A stretch of 37,093 bases of DNA from NCBI GenBank assembly GCA_900319915.1, contig ONQI01000103.1:1-37093 (forward strand), given 5' to 3'. A program made the position numbers and the translations under genes. Positions 1 through 36,997 of this stretch are shown in pieces; position 1 is the first letter of the stretch; each line of letters starts with the position of its first letter. The DNA comes from an uncultured Campylobacter sp. GTDB taxonomy: Bacteria > Campylobacterota > Campylobacteria > Campylobacterales > Campylobacteraceae. Below the pieces are notes generated by a model. It was given only the letters and a program-made list of their open reading frames with translations, was not told where the DNA came from and made no database searches.

Positions 1-48
1 AATTTGAATTAAGCAAAGTCGCCTGGCATAATTCAAATTTGAATCGCG

Positions 49-73
49 AAAAAGCCCGCGCGGGGCGGACTTT
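49..73 (-). terminator. Rho-independent terminator after nrfA-like gene
   Basis: Minus strand reads AAAGTCCGC-CCCGC-GCGGGCTTT-TT, a GC-rich stem with a T tail, 15 nt after the stop codon at 88. Confidence 0.65.
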
Positions 74-87
74 CGCAATTATACCAT

Positions 88-1629
88 TTATTTATCTTTT
101 TTGCATAAATGGTCGTAGAAATTAAACGCTTTTTCCACGCCTTCTAATTCTTTAAACAGCGTGCCGTTTGCCTTAGCTTCGGCTAGCCATTTGCGACCCG
201 TTTTGTCTATCCATTCGCATTTTTCTTTGATGAGCTTTTTGCGAGCGGTGGTGTCTACTAGCGCGTAAACGTCGTCTAGGGTTTTAATCTCGGGCGCTTT
301 GTAGTCTCTTACGCCGCGAGAAGCAAGTATGGCGGCGAGTTTGACGCGGGCTTGCATAGCGTAGTCGTTGGCGTCGGAGAATATGCGAAGGCTCTCGTCC
401 GTGGCGTGGAAATACGCGCCAAAGCTAGAATCCACGTAAGTCCAGCGCCATTGAGCTTTGCGTAGCAAATCTAAGACGGGCTTCATTTCTTCTTGCGTCG
501 CGTTTAGTTCCCACGCTTTGGCGGCTTCTAAGTGCGCCGCGGCTAGATTGTCTAGCGAAACGTCGCTGAGACGGTCAAATTTGGCCTTTTTGTCCTTAAC
601 TATCGACGTCAAAATATCCTTTTTGCCCGCGTGGCAAGTGAGGCAGACTTTGTCCATCATTTCAAGGGGATTGCCGATTTTGTGGTGGCTAAACTTGCTT
701 CCGCCCTCGCTGGTGTAAGGCAAGTGACAGTCCGCGCATGCTAGGCCGTTTTTGGCGTGAACTCCTTTTTGGAATAGTTCGTAATCTGGATGCTCGGCGA
801 ATATTATCGGAGCGCGCGAAAAGGTGTTTTCAAAATGCACTTCTCGCTCGCCGCCAAATAGCGCGGGATCGTCGTAGTGGGCTTCGGTTTCTTCTACGCT
901 AAGACCTTTGCTCCATGGGAAAATCACGCCTTTGGCGATTTTTTTGGAGCCGTTCGCGTCCGTGAACTCATATTTTTTGGTGTAGCTTAGGACGTGGCAT
1001 TGCGCGCAAAGAAGCGAGCGTTTTTCTTGGTGAGAGCTGTGTTCCCAGTCCGGCAAGCCCGCCGAGCGAAGAGAATCGTTGAGGTATTCGCGCTTCATCG
1101 CTAGCGCGCCCGTTTTGGGGTCGTGGCAATCTACGCAGCCGATAGGGTTCATTGCCTCTTTGCCGTAGTGAGCGAGGGATTTTGAGTAGAAATTATCCAC
1201 GCCGTCGCGTTCCATGAGCCTAAGAGTGTCGCCGCTGTGGCAGACTAGACAGCGAGATGCGGTGCCGCCTTCTTCGCCTTCCATGGCGCCCGAGATGAGG
1301 TTAAAGACCATGTCGATGTTTTGGTAATAGTGACCGCGACCATGACCTAGCCACGCGCCGTAGTCGTCTTCGCCCATGCGAATGACGGCGATTTTAGGTC
1401 GCGCTTCTAGCAAATCGAGATAGTCCGCGGTTTGCTTAGTTTGCGCCCAAGTTTCGTATTGCTTTGGATAGTAAGGTTTCCAATCCTCGGCTTTATGCTC
1501 GTTCGCCGGCTCTCCGCGCGGGACGCTTAGCATAGCTTTCTCGGCTTGTTTACCGCTAATGTCGGCAAACAACCACCAAAGCGCGCCTATTAAAACTAGC
1601 GCGCCACAGATCGCGAGTAATTTTTTCAT
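88..1629 (-). CDS. nrfA: NrfA-family pentaheme cytochrome c (ammonia-forming nitrite reductase-like), divergent active site
   Basis: 513 aa with an N-terminal hydrophobic anchor and five heme motifs (CLVCH, CVDCH, CAQCH, CADCH, CLTCH). NrfA-like segments WKPYYPKQYETW, RGH, HPDYE, GVHAKNGLACADCH and RKAQWRW...GAYFHA. Adjacent to nrfH. Confidence 0.85.
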   Translation of the reverse strand: MKKLLAICGALVLIGALWWLFADISGKQAEKAMLSVPRGEPANEHKAEDWKPYYPKQYETWAQTKQTADYLDLLEARPKIAVIRMGEDDYGAWLGHGRGHYYQNIDMVFNLISGAMEGEEGGTASRCLVCHSGDTLRLMERDGVDNFYSKSLAHYGKEAMNPIGCVDCHDPKTGALAMKREYLNDSLRSAGLPDWEHSSHQEKRSLLCAQCHVLSYTKKYEFTDANGSKKIAKGVIFPWSKGLSVEETEAHYDDPALFGGEREVHFENTFSRAPIIFAEHPDYELFQKGVHAKNGLACADCHLPYTSEGGSKFSHHKIGNPLEMMDKVCLTCHAGKKDILTSIVKDKKAKFDRLSDVSLDNLAAAHLEAAKAWELNATQEEMKPVLDLLRKAQWRWTYVDSSFGAYFHATDESLRIFSDANDYAMQARVKLAAILASRGVRDYKAPEIKTLDDVYALVDTTARKKLIKEKCEWIDKTGRKWLAEAKANGTLFKELEGVEKAFNFYDHLCKKDK

Positions 1630-1653
1630 TGTTTTTCTCCTTTTGATTTGATT

Positions 1654-2172
1654 TTATTTTCTTGCGCCAAGAGCGTTTGGCACGACGTTTACGCCGCCTA
1701 GATTAGAGTGCGGGACTTCGCGGTGGCAACGCCAACAATATTCGCCGCTTTCATGTGCTTTTTTCAAATCCCCGCTCAAATTTGAATTAGAGACGAGCGC
1801 GGCGGCTTGTCTAGGGTGGCATTTCTCGCAGTTATTTTGCACGATATTTGACGCGCTTTGGCTAATCTTGATCGAGCCTTCGCGCTCGCCAAAAGTAAAA
1901 GCGTAGGCGTGATGAAGTCCGTCGCTAGCCTTGGCGAGCCAGTAGTTAGCGAAGCCGTCATGGGGCAAATGGCAATCCACGCAACCGGCTCTCGTCCCGT
2001 GCGAGCCGTGCTGCCAAGTGGCGTAAAATCCGTCCATCACGTGGCAATTTACACAGGCTTTGGGATCGGCGCCTAGATACGAAAATATCTCGGCTCTTTG
2101 CGCGGTAGCTAGCGCGAGCCCCGCGAAAATACAGCCCAAAACCGCTATCGCGATAATGAAACGATTTTTCAA
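1654..2172 (-). CDS. nrfH: Tetraheme membrane-anchored quinol dehydrogenase NrfH (NapC/NirT family)
   Basis: N-terminal TM helix, SYLGADPKACVNCHVM, four CxxCH motifs, CWRCHREVPH. TTG start with AGGAGG RBS upstream. Confidence 0.92.
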   Translation of the reverse strand: MKNRFIIAIAVLGCIFAGLALATAQRAEIFSYLGADPKACVNCHVMDGFYATWQHGSHGTRAGCVDCHLPHDGFANYWLAKASDGLHHAYAFTFGEREGSIKISQSASNIVQNNCEKCHPRQAAALVSNSNLSGDLKKAHESGEYCWRCHREVPHSNLGGVNVVPNALGARK

Positions 2173-2207
2173 GTTTTCCTCCTTTTTGTTTGGGGAAAAT
2201 TTAGAGC

Positions 2208-2229
2208 AAAAGTATAAAAAAAGTATAAA
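2208..2229. promoter_or_regulatory. 11-bp tandem direct repeat (AAAAGTATAAA x2) upstream of nrfH
   Basis: Exact tandem repeat 36-57 nt upstream of the nrfH start; reads TTTATACTTTT twice on the minus strand. Confidence 0.35.
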
Positions 2230-2273
2230 AATGAGAAATTTTGTTTAAAATTCGTTAATGTAACTCAAATTTG

Positions 2274-2292
2274 AATTATCTTTATCATTATC
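2274..2292. promoter_or_regulatory. Candidate Fur-family box
   Basis: Reverse complement GATAATGATAAAGATAATT matches the classical GATAATGATAATCATTATC at 15/19 and is a three-hexamer GATAAW array. Confidence 0.45.
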
Positions 2293-2316
2293 TAAACTCA
2301 AAATTCACAATTTTAA

Positions 2317-2324
2317 GCTAAAAT
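2317..2324 (+). promoter_or_regulatory. sigma70 -10 box for macA operon
   Basis: gcTAAAAT (Campylobacter-type gnTAnAAT) 26 nt before the ATG, with AAGGA RBS in between. Confidence 0.55.
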
Positions 2325-2349
2325 ACGCCAAAAACGCAAGGAAAAGCAA

Positions 2350-3534
2350 ATGAAAAAATGGCTAATTCTCGTCGCGCTTGTCGGAGCCGGGCTTGCGGCG
2401 TATTTCACGCTGGGCAAAAGCGAAAACAAAAACCAAATCCTAACCGCCACCGTAAAACGCGCCGACCTTACCCAAAGCGTCGAAGCCGTCGGCGAAGTTT
2501 ACGCCGAAAATCTCGTCGTCGTGGGCGCGCAAGTAAGCGGTAAGATTGAGAAGTTATTTGTCAAAATCGGCGATAAGGTCAAAAAAGGCGACAAAATCGC
2601 CAAAATCGACGCCGAAACCAAGCAAAATACGCTTGATCAACAAGAAGCGGAGCTCGATATTCAAAACGCAAATCTAAACTCTGCTCAAATCGCCTATGAC
2701 ATCGCGCGAACACAGTATTTGCGCGAACTCGAACTCGCTAAGCACAACGCCACGAGCAAACAAAACGTGGAAAACTTCAAAAACACTCTAAGCAGCGCGG
2801 AAGCCATGCTCAAAGAGTTAAAATCTAAAATCAAAAAGACCAAAATCGAAATCAAAACAGCCAGGACAAATCTCGGCTATACCGACATCACCGCGCCTTT
2901 TGACGGCACGATAGTCTCGGTGCCTGTAGAAGTGGGTCAAACTCTCAACGCCAACCAAACCACGCCGACCGTGGTAAATATCGCAGACCTTACCAAGATG
3001 GAAATCAAAATGAAAGTCAGCGAGGCCGATATCGCGCATGTAAAAGTGGGCGACAAGGTGCGCTACTACACCATTGGCAACCAAAAAAAGATTTTCGAGG
3101 GCACGGTGAGTTCGATAGATCCGGGGCTCACCACGCTTAGCGACGGTAGCTATTCGACGACTTCTTCTTCTGGTTCGAGTAGTTCCAGCTCTAGTAGTTC
3201 TTCGGCGGTGTATTATTACGCCAAAATCCGCGTGGACAACACCGACGGCGCGCTTCGCATAGGTATGACTACGCAAAACGAAATCATTATAGCGCAGATT
3301 AAAAACGCTCTTTCTTTGCCGACGCTCGCTATCAAAAACGACGCGGAGGGGACGTACGTACTTGTCAAAGAAGGCGAAGAAATCCGTCCGGTTCGCGTAA
3401 AAACCGGCATTAGCACTAGCGTCGATACTGAAATTTTAGAAGGTTTGAGCGAAGGTCAAGTGATCGTTACCTCGCAAATGAGCGCGGAAGAGCTCGCTAA
3501 AACAATGAAAAAAGCGCATATGAGAATGAGATGA
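2350..3534 (+). CDS. macA: Efflux periplasmic adaptor (membrane fusion protein) MacA
   Basis: N-terminal anchor, VGAQVSGKI lipoyl half, alpha-hairpin, ITAPFDGTIV, GQTLNANQTTP, LRIGMT. Overlaps macB by ATGA. Confidence 0.9.
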   Translation: MKKWLILVALVGAGLAAYFTLGKSENKNQILTATVKRADLTQSVEAVGEVYAENLVVVGAQVSGKIEKLFVKIGDKVKKGDKIAKIDAETKQNTLDQQEAELDIQNANLNSAQIAYDIARTQYLRELELAKHNATSKQNVENFKNTLSSAEAMLKELKSKIKKTKIEIKTARTNLGYTDITAPFDGTIVSVPVEVGQTLNANQTTPTVVNIADLTKMEIKMKVSEADIAHVKVGDKVRYYTIGNQKKIFEGTVSSIDPGLTTLSDGSYSTTSSSGSSSSSSSSSSAVYYYAKIRVDNTDGALRIGMTTQNEIIIAQIKNALSLPTLAIKNDAEGTYVLVKEGEEIRPVRVKTGISTSVDTEILEGLSEGQVIVTSQMSAEELAKTMKKAHMRMR

Positions 3535-5459
3535 TTAAGCTCGTAAATATCACCAAAAGCTTTCAAAACGGTCCTGAAAAAACGCTTGTTCTAAAAGGTA
3601 TAAACCTCGAAATCAAGCGCGGCGAGTTCGTTTCTATCGTGGGTCAAAGCGGATCTGGCAAGAGCACGCTTATGAATATCCTCGGCTGCCTCGATACCCC
3701 GAGCGGCGGCGAATATTTGCTAGAAGGACAGGATATCAGCAGTTTTGACAAGGACGCACTTTCAAATTTGAGACTCAAAAAATTCGGCTTCATTTTTCAG
3801 CGCTATAATCTTCTGGGCGCAAGCGACGCCAAAAATAACGTCGCGCTCCCGGGAATTTATGCGGGTATGAGCGCCGAAGAAAGGATTGCTCGTAGCAAAA
3901 AGCTGCTTGACATGCTAGGGCTTAGCGATAAAGTCGATTCTATGCCAAATCAACTCAGCGGCGGACAACAACAACGTATTTCGATAGCCCGCGCCCTAAT
4001 GAACGGCGGCGAGATATTGCTGTGCGACGAGCCCACGGGAGCGCTCGATAGCAAGAGCGGTATCGTCGTCATGGAAATCCTCAAAAAACTCCACGAGCAA
4101 GGTCGCACCATCATCGTAGTCACGCACGACAAAAATATCGCCTCGTGGGCGAACCGCATCATAGAAATCAAAGACGGAAATATCATCTCCGATACCAAAA
4201 CCAAAGACGAGATATTCAAATTTGAAGACCAAAAAGCCGTCATAAAGAGCGGTTTTGGCAGCATAAAAGACCGCCTAATGGAGGCGTTTGGCATGTCGGT
4301 GGACGCTATCAAAGCTCACAAACTCCGCTCGTTTCTTACGATGCTTGGTATCATCATCGGTATTACTTCGGTCATTTGCGTGGTGGCTTTGGGCAAGGGT
4401 AGCCAAGCCAAAATCCTAGCCGACATCAACAAGGTGGGCACTAGCACGATACGCATAATGCCCGGCAAGAGTTGGGGCGATCCTAATATCAAAAAAATCA
4501 AAAACTTCACTCTAGACGATGCCGTGATGCTTGGCAAGCTTGATTTTATCGACGACGCGACGCCTATGATTTCTTCTAGCGGACTGCTGATGTATGCGAA
4601 CAAATCAGCCAGCGCGAACCTTCGCGGCGGTAGCGAGAGTTCGCTTAAAATCAGCGGCGTGGAAATCATAGAAGGACGAGATTTCGCCCGCAGCGACATC
4701 GAAAACTCAGCCTCCGTCGCCATCATAGACAACAATGTCAAAAACGAGTTTTTCGGGGGCGAAGACCCGCTTGGCAAAACGATACTTTACAACAAAAAAC
4801 CATTTAAAATCATCGGCGTCGGCAAAAAGGACGAAGGCGCGTTTGGTAGCGAGAGTTTGACTATTTATTTGCCTTATTCTACCACGATGAACAAGGTTAC
4901 GGGAGATAGAAACCTTCGCTCAATCGTGCTCAAACTCAAAGACGGCGTCAATTCTCAGCTCGTCGAGCGTGCGATTACCGAGATTATGGTTAGCCGCCGC
5001 GGAACGCAGGATTTTCATATCAACAACTCTGATACTATCATGCAAACGGTTAAGAGCGCGACCGATACCATGCGGCTTTTAATCTCCGGAATAGCGCTCA
5101 TTTCACTCATAGTGGGCGGTATCGGCGTGATGAATATCATGTTAGTTTCGGTGATAGAGCGCACCAAAGAAATTGGCATTCGCATGGCTATCGGTGCCAA
5201 GGGCAGCGACATTATGATTCAGTTTCTCATCGAGGCGGTGCTACTTTGCGCTTTTGGCGGACTCGTGGGCGTGAGCTTAGCATACGCGATAGGAGCGGGG
5301 TTTAACGCGTTTTTGGGAGATAAGTTTAGTATGCTTTTTAGCTCAGAATCCGTAGTTATCGCTTTTGGGATTTCGAGCCTAATCGGCATTATTTTTGGCT
5401 ATATGCCGGCCAAAAACGCCGCCAAACTAAACCCAATCGACGCGCTTTCAAGGGAGTAA
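3531..5459 (+). CDS. macB: MacB ABC transporter (ATPase plus permease)
   Basis: Walker A GQSGSGKS, LSGGQQQR, DEPTGALD, LRSFLTMLGIIIG and GGIGVMNIMLVSVIERTKEIGIRMAIGA. Confidence 0.95.
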   Translation: MIKLVNITKSFQNGPEKTLVLKGINLEIKRGEFVSIVGQSGSGKSTLMNILGCLDTPSGGEYLLEGQDISSFDKDALSNLRLKKFGFIFQRYNLLGASDAKNNVALPGIYAGMSAEERIARSKKLLDMLGLSDKVDSMPNQLSGGQQQRISIARALMNGGEILLCDEPTGALDSKSGIVVMEILKKLHEQGRTIIVVTHDKNIASWANRIIEIKDGNIISDTKTKDEIFKFEDQKAVIKSGFGSIKDRLMEAFGMSVDAIKAHKLRSFLTMLGIIIGITSVICVVALGKGSQAKILADINKVGTSTIRIMPGKSWGDPNIKKIKNFTLDDAVMLGKLDFIDDATPMISSSGLLMYANKSASANLRGGSESSLKISGVEIIEGRDFARSDIENSASVAIIDNNVKNEFFGGEDPLGKTILYNKKPFKIIGVGKKDEGAFGSESLTIYLPYSTTMNKVTGDRNLRSIVLKLKDGVNSQLVERAITEIMVSRRGTQDFHINNSDTIMQTVKSATDTMRLLISGIALISLIVGGIGVMNIMLVSVIERTKEIGIRMAIGAKGSDIMIQFLIEAVLLCAFGGLVGVSLAYAIGAGFNAFLGDKFSMLFSSESVVIAFGISSLIGIIFGYMPAKNAAKLNPIDALSRE

Positions 5460-5461
5460 AA

Positions 5462-6814
5462 GTGAAAAAATACGTATTTTTAGCCGTTCTAGCCGCGCTA
5501 TTTTTGGGCGGCTGCGCAAGTAAGGATTTGAACTACGAACCGCGCGAGGTCGTGCGCGACTATAATGCGAGCTGGCAATTCAAATTTGAAAACGCCAAAC
5601 TAAACGAGCTAATCGACATGGCGCTTAGAAACAACGAAAATTTGCGCGTGGCGGCGGCGAATCTGGGCAAAGCCCTAGCCAACGCGGGGCTTGCGAGGGA
5701 CGATTTGTTTCCGACTCTTAGCGCGAGCGCGAGCGGTACTACAAGCCGCGATATTTCGACCAATGATAATTGGGCTAAAACCTACAAAAGCCAGTTCGCG
5801 CTAAGCTGGGAGCTCGATATTTACGGGCGCATTTACGACGCTTACGCGAGCAAAAACTGGAGTGCTATAGAGAGCTCTCTTAGTCTCGTCAATACTCGCC
5901 TAAGTATCGTAAATTCTGTTATAGACGAGTATTTTCATATTTTATATCTCAACGACCAAATCCGCAATCTTAATTCAAATTTGAATAACTTGCGCGAACT
6001 CGACGCGCTTGTAAATCAAAAATATACTCTTGGCAAAGAGGAGTTTTTGGCCGTGCGCCAAAGTCGCCAAAATATGCTAAACGTAGAAAATAACCTACTT
6101 GCCGCCCGTCGCAATCTCGAGACGAGCTATGAGACTCTAAATAATCTAACGAGAAATTCCGAGCGTTTCGACGAGCTTGGAATTTTGGATTTTAATTTAG
6201 AGGATTTGGATTTCAAATTTGAAATAGGCGAGGGAGGCGAGGTTAAATTTGATTTTATCGAGGATTTTGAGGGGCGAATCGCGCGTCGTCCCGACGTGAA
6301 CGCCGCTTTGGCCGCGCTAAACGCCGCGTTTTACGATTACCGAGGGGCGCAAAAGGCGTTTTATCCTAGCATTACCGTGGGCGGCTCGCTCGGCGATAGC
6401 GACGAGAAGTTTAGTAAGAGTTTTGGTTTTAATCTGCTTAGCGGCAATTTTAGCGTAAAACTGCCTTTTTTAGATTATTTCAGACTCAAAAACAAGCTAA
6501 AAGTCAGCGAGTATGCGTTCGAGGGGCTTCGCGCGACCTATGAAAAAACGCTCAAAAACGCGATAAACGAGGCGATAAAATATGGCGCGTATTATGAAAT
6601 CGACCGCGCCGATCTCGAAAATCTAGAAAAAATTTTAGCCGAAAATGAGAAAATAGTGGAACTTTACGAGCGCAAATACGACGCCGGCCGCACGGAGTTA
6701 AAAGACTTGCTTAACGCTCGCAACGACTTAATTGGGACGCAAAATTCGTTTTTAAAACAAAAATATTTGATAATTTCGGATTACATAAGTTATAACAAGG
6801 CTTCGGCGCGTTAA
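5462..6814 (+). CDS. TolC/OMF-family outer-membrane efflux lipoprotein
   Basis: GTG start, lipobox LGGC, LIDMALRNN, SWELDIYGR, RRPDV, AFYPSITVGG. Third gene of the macAB operon. Confidence 0.88.
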   Translation: MKKYVFLAVLAALFLGGCASKDLNYEPREVVRDYNASWQFKFENAKLNELIDMALRNNENLRVAAANLGKALANAGLARDDLFPTLSASASGTTSRDISTNDNWAKTYKSQFALSWELDIYGRIYDAYASKNWSAIESSLSLVNTRLSIVNSVIDEYFHILYLNDQIRNLNSNLNNLRELDALVNQKYTLGKEEFLAVRQSRQNMLNVENNLLAARRNLETSYETLNNLTRNSERFDELGILDFNLEDLDFKFEIGEGGEVKFDFIEDFEGRIARRPDVNAALAALNAAFYDYRGAQKAFYPSITVGGSLGDSDEKFSKSFGFNLLSGNFSVKLPFLDYFRLKNKLKVSEYAFEGLRATYEKTLKNAINEAIKYGAYYEIDRADLENLEKILAENEKIVELYERKYDAGRTELKDLLNARNDLIGTQNSFLKQKYLIISDYISYNKASAR

Positions 6815-6879
6815 TGTGGGCGACTTGGCTTTTGCGCAAAAACCTTTACCGCGAAAGTTTTCGCTAATTCAAATTTGAA

Positions 6880-8145
6880 ATGAAATTATTTGAAAGTAAA
6901 TTTGAAATAGCAATTTTCATCGGCGTTTGTTTGGCGATTTTCGCCGCGAACGTGACGTGGGAATATTTCAAATTTGAAAAGTTTGTCGCCGATGGGCGCG
7001 TGGAAATTACGGCAAAAGTCCTTCTTAACTACGTCAAAAATGGCGCTAAGAGCGATTACCGCGTGCTCAAACTTCGCGCGGACGGGTTTGATTTTTACAC
7101 TACCACGAGACGCAAAAACTTCTCCGCCGCCGCCGTTACCCTCGTCGCGGACACTTCGGGCGTGAGTTTTGCGGAGTATCTTAAAAAGACCTTTTATATG
7201 CCAAGCTACAAACTTCGCGCCGCGCCTCTTAAAAAGGGCGTTCGCGAGCGACTTTACGATTTGGTTGCCGCCCGGCACGAAAACCCAAAGATGAAAGAAC
7301 TCTTCGCGGCTCTCTTTCTCGCCGCGCCCGTCTCTCGTGAGCTTCGCGCGGACGTTACGAACTGGGGCGTGGCGCATATAATTAGCATTAGCGGCTTTCA
7401 CCTGGGTCTGCTTTTTGCCATAGCGTTTTTTATTTTGCGCCCGCCTTACCGAGCCTTGCAGAGCCGCTATTTCCCATGGCGCGACGCGAATTTCGACCTT
7501 AGTTTTTTCATTCTTGCTTGCGCGGGATTTTATCTTTGGATTTTGGACTTTACGCCAAGTTTTCTACGCTCTTACCTCATGGGAGTTGTCGGGTTTTTCT
7601 TTTTGGCGCGCGGTCTTGGCGTTTTCAAATTTGAAAATCTCTTTGTTTGCGCCGCTCTCGCGCTCGCGTTTAATCCGAGCCTGCTTTTTTCGATAGGATT
7701 TTATTTTTCGGCTCTAGGGGTGTTTTTCATTTTTCTCTATATCCACCATTTTGGCGATGCGAGAGACCTTGAAAGCGCGCCAAAAATGCTTGCTCACACT
7801 CTCTTGCTCGAACTTTTCGTGTTTAGCGCGATGAACGTGCCCGTTTATTACTTTTTTCATCCCGCGGGCGTTTTTCAGCTTTCCGTGATACCGCTAGGAT
7901 ACGCGTTTAGCGTGTTTTACCCGCTTGAAATCGCGCTCCACCTTTTGGGGCGGGGCGATTTGCTAGACGAGTATTTGCTGCGCTTCATCCCGCTTGCGAG
8001 TTCTAGCGCGCAAATCAGCGTTCATCCTTTGATTTTTTGGGCGTTTAACGCTCTTTTATTGCCCGCTATCAAATTTAAATGGCTCGCGGTTTTTCTCGCC
8101 GTTTTTGGTATGGCGGTTTACGCGTTTGGATTAATTCAAATTTGA
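6880..8145 (+). CDS. comEC: ComEC/Rec2 competence membrane channel (no metallo-beta-lactamase domain)
   Basis: Polytopic membrane protein with GVAHIISISGFHLG, PSFLRS and NPSLLFSIGFYFS, which are Competence-domain signatures. Confidence 0.88.
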   Translation: MKLFESKFEIAIFIGVCLAIFAANVTWEYFKFEKFVADGRVEITAKVLLNYVKNGAKSDYRVLKLRADGFDFYTTTRRKNFSAAAVTLVADTSGVSFAEYLKKTFYMPSYKLRAAPLKKGVRERLYDLVAARHENPKMKELFAALFLAAPVSRELRADVTNWGVAHIISISGFHLGLLFAIAFFILRPPYRALQSRYFPWRDANFDLSFFILACAGFYLWILDFTPSFLRSYLMGVVGFFFLARGLGVFKFENLFVCAALALAFNPSLLFSIGFYFSALGVFFIFLYIHHFGDARDLESAPKMLAHTLLLELFVFSAMNVPVYYFFHPAGVFQLSVIPLGYAFSVFYPLEIALHLLGRGDLLDEYLLRFIPLASSSAQISVHPLIFWAFNALLLPAIKFKWLAVFLAVFGMAVYAFGLIQI

Positions 8146-8178
8146 ACGGTTCAAATTTGAATTATTAAGCAATTTTTC

Positions 8179-8186
8179 GCTAAAAT
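8179..8186 (+). promoter_or_regulatory. sigma70 -10 box for asd-hemE operon
   Basis: gcTAAAAT preceded by TTAAGCAATTTTT; AAGGA RBS before the ATG at 8216. Confidence 0.6.
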
Positions 8187-8215
8187 ACGCCAATTTTACT
8201 TTCAAAGGACGCTAG

Positions 8216-10278: not shown

Positions 10279-11177
10279 AATATATTTTCGGCCCGGTGAG
10301 TTCGCGCCGCTTTGGCGCGTCGCTGGGCGTGGATTTGAGCCCGGGGGCGAAATGCTGTAACTTTGACTGTCTTTATTGCGAGCTTGGCAAGGGTAGAGTT
10401 AAGGACGCGATAGAAAATCCGCCGACCGTCGCCGAGGTCGCCCGCGAGCTAAAAACAGCGCTTGAAGAGTTCCCAAACATCGACGTTATCACTCTTACCG
10501 CGAAGGGCGAACCGACTTTGTATCCAAATTTGAAAGAGCTAGTCGCGCGCGTAAACGAACTCAAAACCACTCAAAAGACGCTCATTCTCTCCAATGGCAC
10601 AGTCGCGCTTTATCCGGAGCGGCTTGCGGCGTTAAAAGGGCTCGACATAGTCAAATTTAGCCTTGATAGCGCGGTTGCAAAGACTTTTCGCCGTATCGAT
10701 AGAGGGCTTGAAAATTACGATTTGAGCAAAATTATAGAGGGTATGGCGAAGTTCCGCGCGGAATTTCGCGGCGAGCTTGTCATGGAGACGCTGGTACTCG
10801 CTGGATTTAACGATACTGAAGCTGAGTTTAGTGCGTTAAACGAAGCGTTTGCGAGAATAAAACCTGATAGAATCGATATTTCCACGCTCGATCGACCGCC
10901 GGCTTACGACGTAGGGGGCGTGAGCGAAGAGCGACTTAGAGAGCTAGCCAGGTTAATTACCGCCGCGCCCGTTTTTGTAGCTACTCGTCATCCGCTCGCG
11001 CAGAAAATGGATTATTCGTTAGAAGAACTCGAAAAACTTCTCGCCCTCCGCCCGCAAAGCAAATTTGACGTGGAAAATAATTTTAGCGAAGCGGCGAAGT
11101 CAAATTTGAACGCGCTTTTAGAACGCGGTATCACCCGCCGCGAAACGCTGGCAGGGATGGAATTCTACCGCGTGTAA
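10275..11177 (+). CDS. Radical SAM protein
   Basis: [25 protein letters not shown] (CxxxCxxC), GEPTL. Confidence 0.9.
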
Positions 11178-11431
11178 TTCAAATTTGAAAAATAGGTTTT
11201 TCTTATCCCGCCCATTCTCCAAGCGTCTTCGCGTTGCTATCAGTTGAGAGCGCGTTGTGGCGAGTAAAACGAGCGTGGCAATCTCGTCTTTGAATTACCA
11301 AAACGCTCAATTCAAATTTGAATTATAATTCATAGTCGAGATTTTGCCTCGCCGCGCTCGCAATTGCAAGCCCAAGCCGCGTTCCTTTCGCGGCGCGTTA
11401 GGGATAAGAAAACCGACTATTCAAATTTGAA
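11178..11431. mobile_element. MITE/REP-like nested palindromic element (family A, copy 1)
   Basis: Imperfect 31-32 bp terminal inverted repeats starting with TTCAAATTTGAA, inner inverted repeat 11273-11297/11326-11352, no coding capacity. Homologous to 26539-26739. Confidence 0.65.
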
Positions 11432-11518
11432 CTTGCAATGACGACGACCCGTTTCAAATTTGAATTATAGAGTAAGAGCGAGAGGGATTTCAAATTTGAA
11501 TATTTCAAATTTGAACTT

Positions 11519-11546
11519 GCGGCGCAAACAAACTCGCGCCGCTTTT
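11519..11546 (+). terminator. Hairpin/terminator between convergent radical SAM gene and ppa
   Basis: GCGGCGC-N10-GCGCCGC followed by TTTT. Confidence 0.5.
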
Positions 11547-11549
11547 GGA

Positions 11550-12068
11550 TTATTTGTAGTTTTTGATGGCTTTATCTAGGATTTCTTCGGCGGCTTTCGC
11601 GTCTTTAAATCCCGTTACTTTCACCCATTTGCCAGGTTCTAGCAATTTATAGGTTTCAAAGAAGTTTTTAATACGCGCCAAAGTCGCTTTTGGTAGGTCG
11701 TCGAGCGATTTGATTTCGTCGTAGCGAGGGTCGATTTTGGTGGTTGGGACGGCGATGAGTTTTTCGTCCATGCCAGCTTCGTCCTCCATGACAAGCACGC
11801 CCACTAGACGGCACGGAATGACCGCTCCGGCTTGCACCGCGTAGTCGCTGATGACGAGGATATCGGCAGGATCGCCGTCCGCGGCTAGCGTGCTAGGCAC
11901 GAAGCCATAGTTGGCCGGATACATTACGCTAGAATATAGCACGCGATCTACGCACACCGCGCCGCTTTCTTTGTCGAGTTCGTATTTGATGTTCGAGCCG
12001 TATGGAATTTCGATGACGGCGTTGAGTTTGTCGGGGTTTGAGCCGGTTTTGATTTTTGTTACGTCCAT
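11550..12068 (-). CDS. ppa: Inorganic pyrophosphatase (family I)
   Basis: IEIPYGSNIKYE, YPANYGF, DGDPADI, DEKLIAV. Confidence 0.97.
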   Translation of the reverse strand: MDVTKIKTGSNPDKLNAVIEIPYGSNIKYELDKESGAVCVDRVLYSSVMYPANYGFVPSTLAADGDPADILVISDYAVQAGAVIPCRLVGVLVMEDEAGMDEKLIAVPTTKIDPRYDEIKSLDDLPKATLARIKNFFETYKLLEPGKWVKVTGFKDAKAAEEILDKAIKNYK

Positions 12069-12078
12069 TTTTGCGTCC

Positions 12079-14511: not shown

Positions 14512-15372
14512 ATGGAAAAAATAGAGAAAAACTTAAAATCGGTATTCGTGGTATCTAGAAACGGCGCGACGCAAATAGACGCATTGAAGCGATTAGAGCG
14601 CATTTTGACCGGATTTGGACTGGATGCGATTTTCGAGCCCGCTCTCGCGGCGGCTTTGGGGAGGGAGAGTAATTCAAATTTGAATTATGACGAGCCTAGG
14701 TTCGTCCTTTCTTTAGGTGGAGACGGCAATTTTATCGGCGCGTGTCGCAGGTTTGCGGGCAAAAACGCCTATATTTTTGGCGTGCATACGGGGCATTTGG
14801 GCTTTCTCACGGACGTTACGCTAGACGAGCTTGGCGGTTTTTTAGCGCGGTTTTTTGAGGGCGATTACAAAGTCGAAAGCGTGAGGCTACTCGAAGCGCG
14901 TTTCAAAAAAGACTCCAAAATCACTTTCAAACACGCTTTTAACGACGTGGTCTTTATGCGAAAAAAAGTCAAATCCACCGCCCATATCGACGCGTATTTT
15001 GAGGGTGAACATTTCAACTCATACTACGGAGACGGCGTAATCGTGAGCTCCGCGATGGGATCGACCGCTTACAATATGAGCGCGGGCGGAGCGATAATCC
15101 ACCCGAGCGCCGACGTTTTCGCACTCACCCCCGTGTGCTCGCACAGCCTCACGCAACGCCCGCTCGTATTGCCGTCCGATTTTCGCGTGGAGTTCCGCTC
15201 GAATGACGACGTGGCGGTGCTCATAGACGGGCAAGACACTTTTGATATGCGAAACTTCGACGGCGTCGAAGTCGGATATGGCGCGGAGTGCGTAAATATC
15301 ATCCACAGGGCCGACCGAGATTATTTCGGAATATTAAAAGAAAAGCTTAGATGGGGGCATTATGATAAGTAG
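14512..15372 (+). CDS. nadK: NAD(+) kinase
   Basis: SLGGDGNF, GHLGFL, FNDVV, GDGVIVSSAMGSTAYNMSAGG. Confidence 0.95.
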   Translation: MEKIEKNLKSVFVVSRNGATQIDALKRLERILTGFGLDAIFEPALAAALGRESNSNLNYDEPRFVLSLGGDGNFIGACRRFAGKNAYIFGVHTGHLGFLTDVTLDELGGFLARFFEGDYKVESVRLLEARFKKDSKITFKHAFNDVVFMRKKVKSTAHIDAYFEGEHFNSYYGDGVIVSSAMGSTAYNMSAGGAIIHPSADVFALTPVCSHSLTQRPLVLPSDFRVEFRSNDDVAVLIDGQDTFDMRNFDGVEVGYGAECVNIIHRADRDYFGILKEKLRWGHYDK

Positions 15373-23496: not shown

Positions 23497-24128
23497 GTGG
23501 AGTTAAATTTGAAAATAGCAATTCAAATTTGAATAATAATCAAGCCGAAGTAATTTTACGCAAGGCTCGCCCTAGAGACATCGCCGCCATGCAAGCCCTA
23601 GTCGCTCCCGAAGTCGCCGCCGGGGTGATTTTGCCTCGCGCCGACGACGTGGTAGCGACCAACATTCGCTCGTATACGCTCGCATTTTCGGTAGGTCCAA
23701 AATTGAATAGCGAGGAAACCGAAAATTTAGTCCGCATAGCCGGGCAATCACGCGAAGCGCGGGGTTGCGGGGCGGTGAGCCCCGACCGCAAAGACGGGCT
23801 TTGCTCGTCTGCGGAATCAAATTTGATAGGATACTGCGCTTTGCATATCCATACTGCCGCCTTAGCCGAGGTGCGCTCTCTCATAGTCTCTCCTTCTCAT
23901 AGGGGTCAAGGCGTGGGAGGCGCGCTTGTTCGAGCGCTCCTTGATGAAGCTCGAGAACTTGGCCTTAAGCAAGTTTTTGCGCTTACGTATCAAGATAAAT
24001 TTTTTGAAAAGTTGGGATTTAAACAAATCCCCAAAACCGACCTCCCGGCCCAAAAAATATGGTCGGATTGCGTCAAATGTAAACACTTTCCAACATGCAA
24101 CGAGATCGCGCTAATTTATCCTCTTTGA
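23493..24128 (+). CDS. GNAT acetyltransferase (short ArgA-like), carrying an in-frame repeat insertion
   Basis: LRKA...ILPR, AEVRSL, HRGQGVG acetyl-CoA loop, VFALTY...FFEKLGF, KIWSDCVKC. About 45 extra residues at 23688-23822. Confidence 0.88.
   Translation: MSGVKFENSNSNLNNNQAEVILRKARPRDIAAMQALVAPEVAAGVILPRADDVVATNIRSYTLAFSVGPKLNSEETENLVRIAGQSREARGCGAVSPDRKDGLCSSAESNLIGYCALHIHTAALAEVRSLIVSPSHRGQGVGGALVRALLDEARELGLKQVFALTYQDKFFEKLGFKQIPKTDLPAQKIWSDCVKCKHFPTCNEIALIYPL
23727..23813 (+). repeat. 87-bp palindromic repeat (family B, coding copy)
   Basis: 83/87 identical to 27230-27315. Internal hairpins CGCG-AAG-CGCG, CGGGGC-N5-GCCCCG and AGACGGGC-TTT-GCTCGTCT. Confidence 0.92.
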
Positions 24129-26739: not shown

Positions 26740-26751
26740 GGCAAATTTGAA

Positions 26752-27147: not shown

Positions 27148-27229
27148 TAAGATTTTCCAAGATATAATTCAAATTTGAATTGCGCCACGTCAAGGGTATA
27201 ATTCAAATTTGAACCAAAAATACAAAAAA

Positions 27230-27315
27230 TTAGTCCGCATAGCCGGACAATCACGCGAAGCGCGGGGTTTCGGGGCGGTAGCCCCGAGCGCAAAGACGGG
27301 CTTTGCTCGTCTGCG
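27230..27315 (+). repeat. 86-bp palindromic repeat (family B, intergenic copy)
   Basis: Near-identical to 23727-23813; preceded by two TATAATTCAAATTTGAA direct repeats at 27163 and 27197. Confidence 0.92.
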
Positions 27316-27325
27316 AAATACAAAT

Positions 27326-27361: not shown

Positions 27362-27384
27362 CCAAAATAAACCGCGAAACGCGA

Positions 27385-27702: not shown

Positions 27703-27824
27703 CTTTCATCCTTTGAAATGGAATTTGTAAGAAAATTATAATCCTTTTGTATAAATCAAAAGTAAACGTAATTTTAAAATCGAAAATATTAAATTTAAAG
27801 GTAAATTTGAATAAAATCGCGTCT

Positions 27825-28334
27825 ATGGAAAAAATAAAGGCCGTATTTTTGGATCGCGACGGCGTGATAAACCGCGACGGCGGTTACGTTTGCCGGGCGG
27901 AGGATTTCGAGTTTTTGTCCGGAGTTCCCGAGGCTTTGGCGGGATTTTCGCGGCTAGGATACGAACTATTCGTAGTCACGAATCAATCCGGCATTGGGCG
28001 CGGATACTACTCGCTGGAAGACTTTTTTTCATTGAACGAATACATGCTGGACGAACTCGCAAAAAATGGCGTAAGAATTCGCGGAGTGTATTTTTGTCCG
28101 CACGCGCCGGAGGCAAACTGCGAGTGTCGCAAACCTAGAGCCGGCATGATACTTCGCGCCGCGAGCGAGTGGGACGTGGATTTGGAGCGCTCGATTATGA
28201 TAGGCGATAAGGATAGCGACGTGGTCGCGGGTCGCGCCGCGGGCGTGGGCAAATGCTACAAAATCGGTGCGGGAGTGGGGGAGTATTCAAATTTGAAAGC
28301 GGTTTTTGAGGCGGTTAATTCAAATTTGAACTAA
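27825..28334 (+). CDS. gmhB: D-glycero-D-manno-heptose-1,7-bisphosphate phosphatase
   Basis: FLDRDGVIN, VTNQSGIGRG, CPH...CECRKP, IGDKDSD. Start reassigned to ATG 27825. Confidence 0.93.
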   Translation: MEKIKAVFLDRDGVINRDGGYVCRAEDFEFLSGVPEALAGFSRLGYELFVVTNQSGIGRGYYSLEDFFSLNEYMLDELAKNGVRIRGVYFCPHAPEANCECRKPRAGMILRAASEWDVDLERSIMIGDKDSDVVAGRAAGVGKCYKIGAGVGEYSNLKAVFEAVNSNLN

Positions 28335-28379
28335 ATTTGAGCGAATTTAATTCAAATTTGAATTACAAAAGGAAATAAT

Positions 28380-30723: not shown

Positions 30724-30726
30724 AAA

Positions 30727-31299
30727 ATGTTCAAATTTGAAAATAGTTTATTCGAGCGCGAACTAGCCGCGCATGCTGAAACTGTCGCCAAAATGAGCGC
30801 GTTAGCCCCGCAAGTCGCAAAAGCGAACCAAATCATCGCAAACGCCCTAAAAAACGGCGGTAGAGTGTTAATCTGCGGCAATGGCGGCAGCGCGGCGGAC
30901 GCGCAACATTTCGCAGCCGAGCTCACGGGTCGCTACAAAACCGAGCGCACCCCGCTTGCGGGAATCGCGCTCACTACCGATACTTCCGCGCTTACCGCGA
31001 TTGGCAACGACTATGGCTATGAGGAGGTTTTCGCTCGTCAATGTGCCGCTTTGGGTCGCGCGGGCGACGTGCTGGTAGGGATTTCTACTAGCGGAAACAG
31101 CGCGAACGTGCTAAAAGCCTTTGCCACCGCTAAGAGGGTGGGTTTATCCACCATAGGACTAAGCGGCAAAGGCGGCGGAGCGATGAACGACGCGTGCGAG
31201 CTAAATATCGTCGTGCCCGCTTCCGACACGGCGCGAATACAAGAGATGCATATTCTAATCATTCACACGATTTGCCAAGGTATTGACAACGCATTTTGA
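30727..31299 (+). CDS. gmhA: Phosphoheptose isomerase
   Basis: [34 protein letters not shown]. Confidence 0.97.
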
Positions 31300-31309
31300 G
31301 CGGCTTGTC

Positions 31310-34436
<3,127 letters not shown>

Positions 34437-34440
<4 letters not shown>

Positions 34441-35048
34441 CGGGAATTATCGATTATGGCGCGGGCAATATTAGGAGCGTGATAAACGCCTTTGATTATT
34501 TGGGCGAAAAAACGGCGCTTGTTAGCGACCCGGACGCGCTTGAAAAATACGATCGCGTCGTGCTTCCTGGTGTGGGGGCGTTTGGCGAGGCGATGATGAA
34601 ATTAAAAGCGGCTTCTATGGATGAGGCGATTTTAAACTTTATCTCGAGCGGAAGACCTTTTCTTGGTATTTGTCTTGGCATGCAGTTGCTTTTCGAAAAG
34701 GGCTTAGAATTTGGCGAGCACGAGGGACTTGGTGTCGTCAAAGGAAAAATAGTCAAATTTGAAGAAGACCGCTTTTCATCTCCACTCAAAGTCCCGCACG
34801 TGGGTTGGAATGTTTGCGATTTTACTCGCGAAACGCCCATAAATAAAGGCTTGCCGCGTGAAACTTATCTGTATTTCGTGCATTCTTTTCACGCCGTTTG
34901 CGAGCCAGAATTTGTGCTCGCGCGTACCCATTATGGTTATGATTTTGTGAGCGCGGTGGCAAAAGGAAACGTTTATGGTTTTCAGCCTCACCCTGAAAAA
35001 TCGCACGAAAACGGACTAAAAATACTAAAAAATTTCACGGAGCTATAA
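34437..35048 (+). CDS. hisH: Imidazole glycerol phosphate synthase glutaminase subunit
   Basis: [39 protein letters not shown]. Confidence 0.96.
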
Positions 35049-35049
35049 A

Positions 35050-35760
35050 ATGGAGCTAATTCCCGCAATTGATCTCAAAGACGCCAAGGCGGTACGCCTT
35101 TTAAAAGGTGAAATGAATACGGCTAAAATCTATTCCGAGCACCCTTGGGAATTAGCGCAGATCTTCGCCGACGCCGGTGCGAGCAGACTTCACGTGGTCG
35201 ATCTTGACGGCGCGTTCGCTGGCGATACGCTCAATTTCGCCACGGTCGAAAAAATAGCCAAATATTCAAATTTGAAAATAGAAATCGGTGGCGGAATTCG
35301 CAATGAAGAGCGTATTAAAGCATATTTAAATCTCGGCGTAGATAGGATTATTTTGGGTTCCGTGGCGCTTAAAAATCCTGATTTCGTGCGCGAAATGGCG
35401 CAAAAATACAAAATCGTGGTCGGCATAGACGCGAGAGACGGATTTGTAGCGGTCGAAGGCTGGGCGGAAGTCTCAAATATTCGCGCTACCGAACTCGCGA
35501 GCCTTTACGCGGACGCGGGTGTGGAGGCGATAATCGCTACCGATGTAGGTAAGGACGGCACACTTAGCGGAGTAAATTTGGATTTTACTAGCGAAATTGC
35601 AAAAGTGGCAAAAATTCCCGTTATCGCGAGTGGCGGAGTTTCAAATTTGAACGATATAGAGACGCTTTGTGCTCATCCGGAAATTGCCGGTGCGATTATA
35701 GGCAAAGCGTATTACGAAGGCAAATTAGACCTAAAAAAAGCTTACGAACTTGCGAATTAA
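35050..35760 (+). CDS. hisA: ProFAR isomerase
   Basis: [32 protein letters not shown]. Confidence 0.96.
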
Positions 35761-35782
35761 AGTTTATTTAAAACTAAATTTC

Positions 35783-35790
35783 GCTAAAAT
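35783..35790 (+). promoter_or_regulatory. sigma70 -10 box for cheY operon
   Basis: gcTAAAAT; AAGGA RBS before GTG 35823. Confidence 0.55.
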
Positions 35791-35822
35791 ATAGTCGAAT
35801 GCAAAATTAGAAAGGATAAATA

Positions 35823-36194
35823 GTGAAGTTATTGGTCGTCGATGATAGCTCTACTATGAGACGTATTATCAAAAATACTTTGCAAAGACTTGGACACAAG
35901 GATATTTTGGAAGCCGAGCATGGACTTGAGGCTTGGAATTTGCTTCAAGAAAACGCCGATATTAACGTGCTTATCACGGATTGGAACATGCCTGAGATGA
36001 ACGGTCTCGAACTCGTCAAAAAGGTTCGCGCCGAGAAAAAATACGAAGACATGCCGATTATTATGGTTACCACGGAAGGCGGTAAAGCCGAGGTTATCAC
36101 GGCCCTAAAGGCCGGCGTGAACAATTATATCGTCAAACCTTTCACGCCACAAGTGTTAAAAGAAAAACTTGAAGACGTCCTAGGCGCCTCATGA
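35823..36194 (+). CDS. cheY: Chemotaxis response regulator CheY
   Basis: LVVDDSSTMRRII, TDWNMPEMNG, VTTEG, YIVKPF. cheY-prmA-ftsH synteny. Confidence 0.95.
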   Translation: MKLLVVDDSSTMRRIIKNTLQRLGHKDILEAEHGLEAWNLLQENADINVLITDWNMPEMNGLELVKKVRAEKKYEDMPIIMVTTEGGKAEVITALKAGVNNYIVKPFTPQVLKEKLEDVLGAS

Positions 36195-36997
36195 AAAACA
36201 AATTTTTCGAGCTAAGCGTTTTTAGCTCGCAAAATGAAATTTTAAAAAATTTTGCTTTTGAATTAGGCGTAGAGGCGGTTGAAGAGGTAGAGGGCGGATT
36301 TGTCGTGCGCGACGAGGACGACCTTAGCGCGCTCGAATTCGGTCTAAAAGAGCTTGCCTCGCGTCTAAATATTGACATTCGCACCTGCATGCAAATCAAA
36401 GACAACATCGACTGGATAGAAAAATACAAAAAGTCTGTTCAGCCTATTAAGGTTGGTAAATTCTACGTTCGCCCAAGTTGGGAAGAAAAGGGCGAGGGGC
36501 TCGACATCATCGTCGATCCCGCACTCGCTTTTGGTTCCGGACACCACGAGAGCACAAATTCGTGTCTTACTCTCATTAGTAGTCACGTTGATTCAAATTT
36601 GAAAACCGCTCTAGACGTAGGCTGTGGCAGCGGAATACTCTCAATCGCTCTTGCTAAGTTGGGCTTAAAAGTAGACGCGTGCGACACCGACGAACAAGCT
36701 ACAGACGCGACCGCCGCGAACGCCGCGAAAAACGACGTTAAATTAAATCAAATTTGGACTGGCTCCGTAAACGGCGCAGGCGATAAAACTTACGACGTCG
36801 TAGTGGCAAACATCATTGCCGACATCATTCTTATGCTGGCTCCAGACCTTGTTTCAAAGGTCGCGCCGGGCGGTTATCTCGTGATTTCGGGCATACTTGA
36901 TAAATATAAATCCCGCGTTTTGGACGCATTTTCAAATTTAAAACTTGTTGAAAATATCTCCAAAAACGAATGGGAAAGCTTCATATTTAAGAAATAA
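36191..36997 (+). CDS. prmA: Ribosomal protein L11 methyltransferase
   Basis: DPALAFGSGHHEST, LDVGCGSGILS, VVANI, SGIL. Confidence 0.95.
   Translation: MKNKFFELSVFSSQNEILKNFAFELGVEAVEEVEGGFVVRDEDDLSALEFGLKELASRLNIDIRTCMQIKDNIDWIEKYKKSVQPIKVGKFYVRPSWEEKGEGLDIIVDPALAFGSGHHESTNSCLTLISSHVDSNLKTALDVGCGSGILSIALAKLGLKVDACDTDEQATDATAANAAKNDVKLNQIWTGSVNGAGDKTYDVVVANIIADIILMLAPDLVSKVAPGGYLVISGILDKYKSRVLDAFSNLKLVENISKNEWESFIFKK

What the first reader, a model, noticed from the sequence alone, without database searches (positions are those of the whole stretch)
32..36603. Highly iterated palindrome TTCAAATTTGAA: candidate DNA-uptake or HIP1-like genomic signature with an RAATTY core
Seen: about 41 perfect copies in 37 kb, plus about 15 more retaining the 10-bp core TCAAATTTGA (e.g. 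1776, 2265, 3762, 11100, 15414, 16622, 22074, 23817, 25979, 26673, 26762, 29488, 32291, 34414). A base-composition estimate gives well under 0.01 expected 12-mers, so enrichment is several thousand-fold. It often extends to AATTCAAATTTGAATT (11309) or TAATTCAAATTTGAATTA (14670, 28348) and occurs both inside genes and between them. Known: Neisseria DUS and Pasteurellaceae USS have similar density but are non-palindromic. Cyanobacterial HIP1 (GCGATCGC) is palindromic and centred on a methyltransferase site. C. jejuni natural transformation requires CtsM-methylated RAATTY, and the core AAATTT here is RAATTY. Inference: an extended, lineage-specific self-recognition or uptake signal, or a methylation-driven HIP1 analogue. 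A nucleoid-protein binding site is an alternative. I do not know of a description of this motif but cannot search.
Basis: partly seen in the sequence, partly recalled or inferred. Interest (0 to 1): 0.9.

Follow-up and report, generated by a model that had tools for sequence, protein, structure and literature searches.

The report
Species-specific palindrome rewriting a Campylobacter genome
A 12-letter DNA palindrome is written about 1,500 times through the genome of a likely Campylobacter, even into its proteins, yet is rare in 300 related genomes; it is built around the six-letter word that Campylobacter jejuni methylates to mark its own DNA, and it likely serves as a species-specific label for DNA uptake.

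Summary
Confirmed and genome-wide. TTCAAATTTGAA occurs 41 times in the window (shuffle mean 0.01) and 1,561 times in the 1.36-Mb genome (1.15/kb, 168 of 169 contigs), but 0-24 times in each of 300 other genomes of the family. Coding copies number 827 against 24 after synonymous-codon shuffling; they make the peptide SNLN 79-fold over-represented and sit in poorly conserved genes and residues. One-base variants of the AAATTT core are almost absent (21 vs 1,561). The genome has an orphan D12 methyltransferase 57% identical to the likely C. jejuni CtsM, plus competence genes. Relatives carry other RAATTY-centred words (GGAATTCTAGAATTCC, AAAATCAAATTTG); some lineages without this methyltransferase carry CTTTACATGTAAAG. 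It fits a HIP1-type iterated palindrome on a methylation site with the coding footprint of an uptake sequence. Best reading (0.5): a lineage-specific dialect of the methylated RAATTY uptake signal, spread by biased uptake and recombination. Methylation, uptake bias and the reader protein are untested; a dimeric chromosomal reader (0.22) or repair ratchet (0.2) remain open. Ten literature searches found no description.

The parts
32..36603 (.). 41 dispersed perfect copies of the palindrome TTCAAATTTGAA (26 in genes, 14 intergenic, 1 on a gene end) plus 15 copies with only the 10-bp core
11178..11515 (.). intergenic cluster of six perfect copies (11178, 11311, 11420, 11453, 11489, 11504); none of 20 listed strain differences in 11080-11744 falls in a copy
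   Evidence: P about 0.07, suggestive only
8135..8161 (.). close pair 15 nt apart at the 3' end of comEC
6880..8145 (+). comEC competence-channel gene, with two in-frame copies read as FKFE (6967, 7624)
   Evidence: PF03772 E 3.5e-23
14670..14687 (.). 18-bp extended form TAATTCAAATTTGAATTA inside the NAD kinase gene (read NSNLN)
28286..28365 (.). three copies 33 and 32 nt apart across the end of the ORF at 27807-28334; the last is the 18-bp form
27166..27213 (.). intergenic pair 34 nt apart, each preceded by TATAAT overlapping its first bases
23721..23826 (+). about 110-130-bp GC-rich repeat element, often bounded by the motif, inserted in frame in a GNAT acetyltransferase gene; another copy at 27225-27325 and one in the N-terminus of the methyltransferase (G000:C44)

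Best explanation
TTCAAATTTGAA is a genome-wide, lineage-specific iterated palindrome that likely extends the methylated RAATTY 'self' mark of Campylobacter into a 12-base DNA-uptake dialect. Shown: the word is kept with a nearly invariant AAATTT core and softer outer bases; it is absent from the orthologous positions of two relatives, where it is matched by point differences or small in-frame insertions; it accumulates wherever proteins tolerate it; and a CtsM-like orphan methyltransferase and the competence genes are present. Inferred: the methyltransferase puts m6A on both strands of the core; a reader in the uptake apparatus of this lineage prefers the marked core with both TTC/GAA arms; fragments with the better word enter and recombine more often, so new copies spread by molecular drive until protein constraint stops them.
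For: 1,561 copies vs 0-24 in 300 family genomes. Coding 827 vs 24.1 under synonymous shuffle; SNLN 79x and FKFE 26x over amino-acid composition, 148 of 152 FKFE spelled by the motif; 6.0/kb between genes vs 0.67/kb in genes. One-off variants 508/104/151 at outer positions vs 14/4/3 in the core, and 13 of the 14 keep RAATTY. In 273 orthologue pairs with G002, motif-coded residues are 36% identical vs 66% elsewhere and 16% vs 1.7% in gaps or extensions; 0 of 124 aligned sites carry the 12-mer. Density falls from 1.5/kb in 40-50%-identical genes to 0.2/kb at 80% or more; the ribosomal-protein and ATP-synthase operons give the longest empty stretches. Findlay and Redfield report the same placement for uptake sequences (PMC2817400, abstract). 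D12 methyltransferase without a neighbouring nuclease, 57% identical to a C. jejuni protein behind thrS-infC; present in 19 of 19 genus genomes and 32 of 32 genomes of five other genera, 0 of 17 in six further genera, whose samples have low RAATTY. Non-Campylobacter loci holding the same methyltransferase family show median RAATTY O/E 1.6 (32 loci) vs 4.6 in Campylobacter (42 loci), so the enzyme alone is not enough. ComEC, secretin, PilB/GspE, GspF, ComE, DprA and pilins present. C. jejuni needs methylated RAATTY at the first uptake step (PMC8468864, PMC10046745, passages).
Against: No methylome, uptake or binding data for this organism. Half-sites are barely enriched (an arm is GAA in 5.4% of cases when the other arm has no match, genome background 1.8%, vs 73% when the other is perfect), which points to a two-fold symmetric reader, while most uptake sequences are non-palindromic (bioRxiv 2024.09.10.611283, passage). 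In C. jejuni added methylated EcoRI sites suffice for uptake (PMC10046745), so no flank preference is on record there, and GAATTC is depleted here (249 vs 383). Genus g7 has the methyltransferase (5 of 5) with little or no RAATTY excess in 3 samples. An ACATGT-centred palindrome exists in genomes lacking this enzyme, so such words can arise without CtsM. The Cj0683-type pilin position before priA falls in an assembly gap. Strain variation avoids the motif only at P about 0.07-0.09.
Confidence: 0.5

Rival explanations
1. The 12-mer is the site of an abundant dimeric chromosomal protein (nucleoid, replication, segregation or recombination factor) that reads the methylated core, and copies are kept by direct selection inside the cell.
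For: Perfect palindrome with both arms needed together; very sharp core; ninefold higher density between genes.
Against: Spacing of cluster-collapsed sites is random (CV 0.96 vs 0.98 +/- 0.03 simulated) and 10-kb operons and the dnaA-dnaN-gyrB region have none; 21% of gaps are under 50 nt vs 5% expected, which looks like surplus copies; the word differs completely between members of one genus, fast for an essential chromosomal protein (inference). No candidate protein was looked for systematically.
Confidence: 0.22
2. A methylation-linked repair or gene-conversion bias ratchets RAATTY sites towards one word without any function for the word itself, as modelled for HIP1.
For: Outer-biased one-off spectrum, density near one per kb and core not enriched outside its context all match Elhai's description of HIP1 (PMC4390886, passages). 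Motif sites lie near RAATTY in relatives more often than low-identity control windows (62 of 152 vs 13% in G002; 17 of 140 vs 4% in G008), as if old cores had their flanks rewritten.
Against: MutL not found in the 82%-complete genome. Elhai's ratchet rests on methyl-C flanks, whereas these flanks have no such site (sequence). 87 of 124 aligned sites lack even the core in G002, and 27 of 171 lie in insertions. Other phyla with the same enzyme family show little enrichment.
Confidence: 0.2
3. The copies are ends or footprints of a small mobile repeat, or products of template-switch perfection of palindromes.
For: A 110-130-bp repeat is often bounded by the word, and tandem copies at 14-18 nt are common.
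Against: Only 25 of 1,561 copies lie within 60 nt of that element's core (narrow pattern, lower bound); flank families other than neighbouring copies of the motif have at most 11 members; 124 of 171 coding sites align to orthologues without a gap; symmetry beyond the 12-mer equals expectation (0.374 vs 0.365).
Confidence: 0.05
4. The word is a transcription signal (terminator arm or promoter element).
For: 99 copies start directly after a stop codon; 281 close pairs fold as hairpins (mean -11.5 kcal/mol, no shuffle control); density is highest in convergent gaps (7.9/kb vs 4.2 divergent).
Against: 828 copies lie inside genes in two reading frames; a single copy does not fold (0 kcal/mol); 93 close pairs are inside genes, 87 of them in frame; only 41 copies overlap TATAAT. 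At most a secondary use.
Confidence: 0.03

Closest known systems
CtsM / M.CjeNI RAATTY methylation-dependent DNA uptake of Campylobacter jejuni (Beauchamp 2017, not held; seen through passages of PMC8468864, PMC8627207, PMC10046745, PMC4294202)
   Same: Same six-base core; a 57%-identical orphan D12 methyltransferase; same competence gene set.
   Different: The described signal is six bases and degenerate; here one form with fixed 3-bp arms dominates, the other three forms are depleted in genes, and the word is confined to one lineage.
HIP1 and alternative HIPs of cyanobacteria (PMC4390886 passages; PMC13756078 abstract; bioRxiv 2024.09.10.611283 passages)
   Same: Palindrome extending a methyltransferase site, about one per kb, one-off variants at the outer bases, core not enriched outside its context, proposed uptake role.
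   Different: 12 bp and AT-rich, on an adenine-methylase site only; random rather than quasi-periodic spacing; differs between species of one genus instead of being shared across a phylum.
DUS/USS uptake sequences of Neisseriaceae and Pasteurellaceae (PMC2817400 and PMC3458573 abstracts; PMC3630211 listing only)
   Same: About 1,500 copies, skewed peptide content, placement in poorly conserved genes and residues, critical core with weaker flanks, dialects among relatives.
   Different: Palindromic and likely methylation-dependent; peptide skew far larger (79x for a tetrapeptide vs about 2x for tripeptides, not the same measure); no uptake test and no receptor known.

Membership tests
HIP (highly iterated palindrome) | short palindrome strongly over-represented genome-wide, near one per kb | tested here: met
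   1,561 copies, 1.15/kb, 34x over synonymous null
HIP (highly iterated palindrome) | contains the target of a resident methyltransferase | tested here: inconclusive
   D12 enzyme 57% identical to the C. jejuni protein; its RAATTY specificity is inferred from homology, not measured
HIP (highly iterated palindrome) | one-base variants concentrated at outer positions | tested here: met
   508/104/151 outer vs 14/4/3 core
HIP1 proper | quasi-periodic spacing | tested here: not met
   CV 0.96 vs 0.98 +/- 0.03 for random placement, on contigs of at most 37 kb
HIP1 proper | same word shared across a broad clade | tested here: not met
   0-24 copies in 300 other family genomes
DUS/USS uptake sequence | competence machinery in the genome | tested here: met
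   ComEC, secretin, T2SSE, T2SSF, HHH_3 ComE, DprA, N-methyl pilins
DUS/USS uptake sequence | skews peptides; sits in poorly conserved genes and residues | tested here: met
DUS/USS uptake sequence | dialects among related species | tested here: met
   G008/G016, G014, G005 carry other RAATTY-centred words
DUS/USS uptake sequence | non-palindromic word | tested here: not met
   perfect palindrome; half-sites barely enriched
DUS/USS uptake sequence | scarce in recently acquired genes | tested here: inconclusive
   0.32/kb in genes under 40% GC vs about 0.7, but that class mixes foreign-looking and highly conserved genes
DUS/USS uptake sequence | measured uptake preference and a receptor that binds the word | not testable with these tools
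   needs an isolate; the Cj0683-type locus is in an assembly gap
CtsM RAATTY system | orphan D12 m6A methyltransferase of the M.CjeNI family | tested here: met
   PF02086, intact DPPY motif, neighbours glyS and a transporter-like gene, no nuclease beside it
CtsM RAATTY system | m6A at RAATTY sites | not testable with these tools
   no methylome data; only assembled contigs were offered
CtsM RAATTY system | degenerate RAATTY abundant in all forms | tested here: not met
   in genes AAATTT 3,084 vs 1,550, but GAATTC 249 vs 383, GAATTT 695 vs 853, AAATTC 626 vs 793
REP/MITE repeat family | copies share a longer element body | tested here: not met
   346 of 1,561 sites share a flank, the largest cluster (127 flanks) through neighbouring copies of the motif, others at most 11; 25 near the 120-bp element

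The most novel reading that the evidence does not exclude
Campylobacterales use a two-layer self-recognition code: a shared methyl mark plus a fast-evolving, palindromic sequence context read by a lineage-specific receptor, giving species-level mating dialects (TTCAAATTTGAA, GGAATTCTAGAATTCC, AAAATCAAATTTG, and CTTTACATGTAAAG on another core) strong enough to rewrite about 800 protein sites in one genome. HIPs and DUS/USS would then be one phenomenon.
Probability: 0.35. Interest if true: 0.85.

Novelty: new variant of a known kind. Interest (0 to 1): 0.63.

Why it matters
The protein that reads methylated RAATTY during Campylobacter uptake was not identified in the passages I read, and the function of HIP-type palindromes is still argued. 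It would also imply sequence-coded barriers to gene flow inside the genus, it shows a DNA word reshaping a proteome, and it gives a clean marker for binning this lineage.

Tried and rejected
Beauchamp 2017 is not held, so any data there on flanking bases, including supplements, are unseen. Ten paper searches found no description of this 12-mer or of extended RAATTY words; one search returned 7 unrelated papers holding the letters; most subscription papers are not searched. PF01555 methyltransferases and MutL were not found in the 82%-complete genome, which does not show absence. NCBIfam gave only a weak Dam hit. A D12 survey of 25 genomes to pair the ACATGT palindrome with an enzyme was inconclusive: a related 320-346-aa group occurs in genomes with and without the word, and 3 genomes with over 100 copies in family f23 gave no D12 hit. 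The first strain comparison listed only 40 of 280 differences, so it is not used as a test. Runs with small shares are not used for habitat. Assembly artefact rejected: contigs from other studies carry the copies in place. Template-switch perfection, MITE origin and periodic spacing rejected.
Full report
Observation. The window holds 41 perfect copies of TTCAAATTTGAA and 56 of the inner 10-mer at the coordinates given; 100 dinucleotide shuffles gave a mean of 0.01. The 16- and 18-bp forms exist but are a minority (4 and 2 of 41). The window is contig C39 of a 1.357-Mb, 47.9% GC, 82%-complete assembly. The name Campylobacter is inferred: the best relatives of its methyltransferase are in named Campylobacter records. 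Four runs of one study labelled bovine gut metagenome hold the test stretch, three of them marked as a possible source; contigs from other studies lie on it with 0-5% other letters in the longest listed pieces, so it is no assembly artefact.

Genome-wide. There are 1,561 copies (1.15/kb) on 168 of 169 contigs, and it is the commonest 12-mer. With my own gene calls (1,424 genes, 91% coding), 828 copies are in genes, 699 between genes and 34 on edges: 0.67 vs 6.0 per kb. Shuffling synonymous codons within genes gives 24.1 +/- 4.4 against 827 observed. The motif is read in two frames only (679 as xSNL[N/K], 148 as FKFE); SNLN is 79-fold and FKFE 26-fold above amino-acid composition, and 148 of 152 FKFE are spelled by the motif. 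The other RAATTY forms fall below the same null (GAATTC 249 vs 383, GAATTT 695 vs 853, AAATTC 626 vs 793), with the caveat that the motif itself shapes the codon pool.

Anatomy. One-base variants number 508, 104 and 151 at the three outer positions and 14, 4 and 3 in the core; 13 of the 14 keep RAATTY. The arms go together: an arm of an AAATTT site is GAA in 5.4% of cases when the other arm has no match (genome background 1.8%) and in 73% when the other is perfect. Beyond 12 bp there is a weak TTA preference but no extra symmetry (0.374 vs 0.365), which rules out general palindrome perfection. After collapsing clusters, spacing is random (CV 0.96 vs 0.98 +/- 0.03); 21% of gaps are under 50 nt (5% expected); of 281 close pairs 93 are in genes, 87 of those in frame. 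The longest empty stretches are the ribosomal-protein operon (10.3 kb) and the tol-pal/ATP-synthase region (9.9 kb); the dnaA-dnaN-gyrB region is also empty (gene names from my reading of the sequences). A 110-130-bp GC-rich repeat is often bounded by the word but accounts for at least 25 of 1,561 copies only.

Origin of copies. I compared 400 kb each of G002 and G008 (about a quarter of each genome). In 273 orthologue pairs with G002, of 171 motif sites 124 align without a gap, 27 lie in insertions, 11 in terminal extensions and 9 across other gaps; none of the 124 has the 12-mer, 29 keep AAATTT and 8 another RAATTY. Motif-coded residues are 36% identical vs 66% elsewhere; G008 gives 29% vs 62% over 226 pairs. 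Density drops from 1.5/kb in genes 40-50% identical to 0.2/kb at 80% or more. RAATTY lies within 12 nt of the orthologous position more often than in low-identity control windows (62 of 152 vs 893 of 6,933; 17 of 140 vs 299 of 7,496), a loose control. In 665 nt covered by other strains none of 20 listed differences falls in the 82 motif positions (P about 0.07), suggestive only.

Distribution and dialects. The 12-mer occurs 0-18 times in 18 other genomes of the genus and 0-24 times in 300 of the family, a sample of a larger group. Samples of 2-40 kb from all 18 congeners and up to 20 kb from 38 hand-picked genomes of other genera show AAATTT or GAATTC excess across genera g1-g5, with sharp long words in a few: GGAATTCTAGAATTCC in G008 and G016 (121 perfect copies in 400 kb of G008, core variants near zero), AAAATCAAATTTG in G014, looser TAAAATTTTA-type words in G005 and G040. 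On an aspartyl-tRNA synthetase tree of 17 congeners G000 is a lone branch beside species with loose TAAATTTA words (support 86/86), apart from G008/G016 and G014.

Methyltransferase and uptake genes. G000:C44:626-1870 encodes a D12-class enzyme with an intact DPPY motif, between glyS and a transporter-like gene, with no nuclease beside it. It is 57% identical to a 363-aa C. jejuni protein behind thrS-infC. I take that protein as M.CjeNI/CtsM: the gene order is recalled, while the D12 class, RAATTY target and similar length come from passages of PMC4294202 and PMC8627207. Homologues at 49-68% occur in 19 of 19 congeners and at 53-60% in 32 of 32 genomes of genera g2-g5 and g7, but in 0 of 17 genomes of g6 and g8-g12 (9 have 26-34% paralogues; several are incomplete). 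Samples of g8-g12 have 1.2-3.8 RAATTY/kb against 4.9-13.4 in g1-g5; g7 is an exception, with the enzyme but little excess. Loci of other phyla holding this family have median O/E 1.6 (32 of 34 loci long enough) vs 4.6 in Campylobacter (42 of 46; many close kin). ComEC lies in the window; a secretin-ATPase-TPR-PilB cluster, GspF, ComE, DprA and four pilin-like genes (three with the Pfam N-methyl motif) lie elsewhere. The pilin that precedes priA in four relatives, the position of Cj0683 (PMC10046745), cannot be examined because priA is cut by a contig end. MutL was not found.

Mechanism. Shown: a sharp, symmetric, lineage-specific word is kept against mutation and pushed into every tolerant position. 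From the literature: C. jejuni needs methylated RAATTY for the first uptake step (passages of PMC8468864 and PMC10046745), uptake sequences sit in poorly conserved genes and residues (PMC2817400, abstract), and the H. influenzae genomic consensus equals its uptake bias, with a critical core and weaker flanks (PMC3458573, abstract). Against it: two-fold symmetry, no recorded flank need in C. jejuni, g7, and the ACATGT word in genomes without this enzyme. Rivals: a dimeric chromosomal reader under direct selection (0.22), a methylation-linked repair ratchet as modelled for HIP1 (PMC4390886, passages; 0.2), mobile-element or template-switch origin (0.05), transcription signal (0.03).

Comparison and novelty. 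It works like a HIP on the CtsM site with the coding footprint of a DUS/USS. It is not HIP1 (other word, no periodicity, one lineage), not a canonical DUS/USS (palindromic, uptake untested) and departs from the described CtsM signal (one form, fixed arms). Ten searches found no account of extended RAATTY words; the founding CtsM paper could not be read. Earlier notes of this scan report RAATTY hyper-abundance, a C-RAATTY-G motif and the TACATGTA palindrome in other genomes; these are unchecked leads and show that the theme recurs. Verdict: real, new variant of a known kind, interest 0.63.

Noticed in passing
G008 (L009, L292-L311), G016 (L018, L372, L373), L025: A doubled-site dialect, GGAATTCTAGAATTCC (two GAATTC 8 bp apart), 121 perfect copies in 400 kb of G008 with almost no core variants; in two genes it sits at the position of G000's word.
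   Followed up: partly
G026, G028, G029 (L343, L348, L349); family f23 (G322, G366, G380, G462, G472 and others): Another iterated palindrome, CTTTACATGTAAAG; its 12-mer is in 13 of 14 f23 genomes, up to 791 copies; G026, G028 and G029 lack the CtsM-like enzyme; no cognate methyltransferase could be assigned.
   Followed up: partly
window 23721-23826 and 27225-27325; G000:C44:1681-1870: A 110-130-bp GC-rich repeat family (about 40 blast hits), often bounded by the 12-mer and inserted in frame in proteins, including a GNAT acetyltransferase and the N-terminus of the methyltransferase itself.
   Followed up: partly
G000 genome-wide: 39 copies of a GTCATTGCRAG-type repeat head, resembling CGTC-tagged REPs (name recalled).
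   Followed up: no
G014 (L016, L350, L351): An apparently asymmetric dialect, AAAATCAAATTTG / AAAACCAAATTTGA, in another 47%-GC congener.
   Followed up: no
L022-L098 (Campylobacter loci): RAATTY stays near 9-10 per kb in most Campylobacter loci whether GC is 30% or 51%, as if held at a set point; G000 has 4.8 per kb.
   Followed up: no
G000:C138:1239-6088: dnaA, dnaN and gyrB are 33-40% GC in a 48%-GC genome and hold no copy of the motif.
   Followed up: no
window 88-2172: Cytochrome c552 nitrite reductase gene (PF02335) with a small multiheme partner, an nrfAH-like pair; no motif copy between 44 and 4214.
   Followed up: no
L030 and L067: One C. concisus contig holds two copies of this methyltransferase family at different loci.
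   Followed up: no
L151, L169, L203, L205 and others: Isolated pairs of the 12-mer 14 nt apart occur in unrelated 55-60% GC environmental contigs, without dispersed copies.
   Followed up: no
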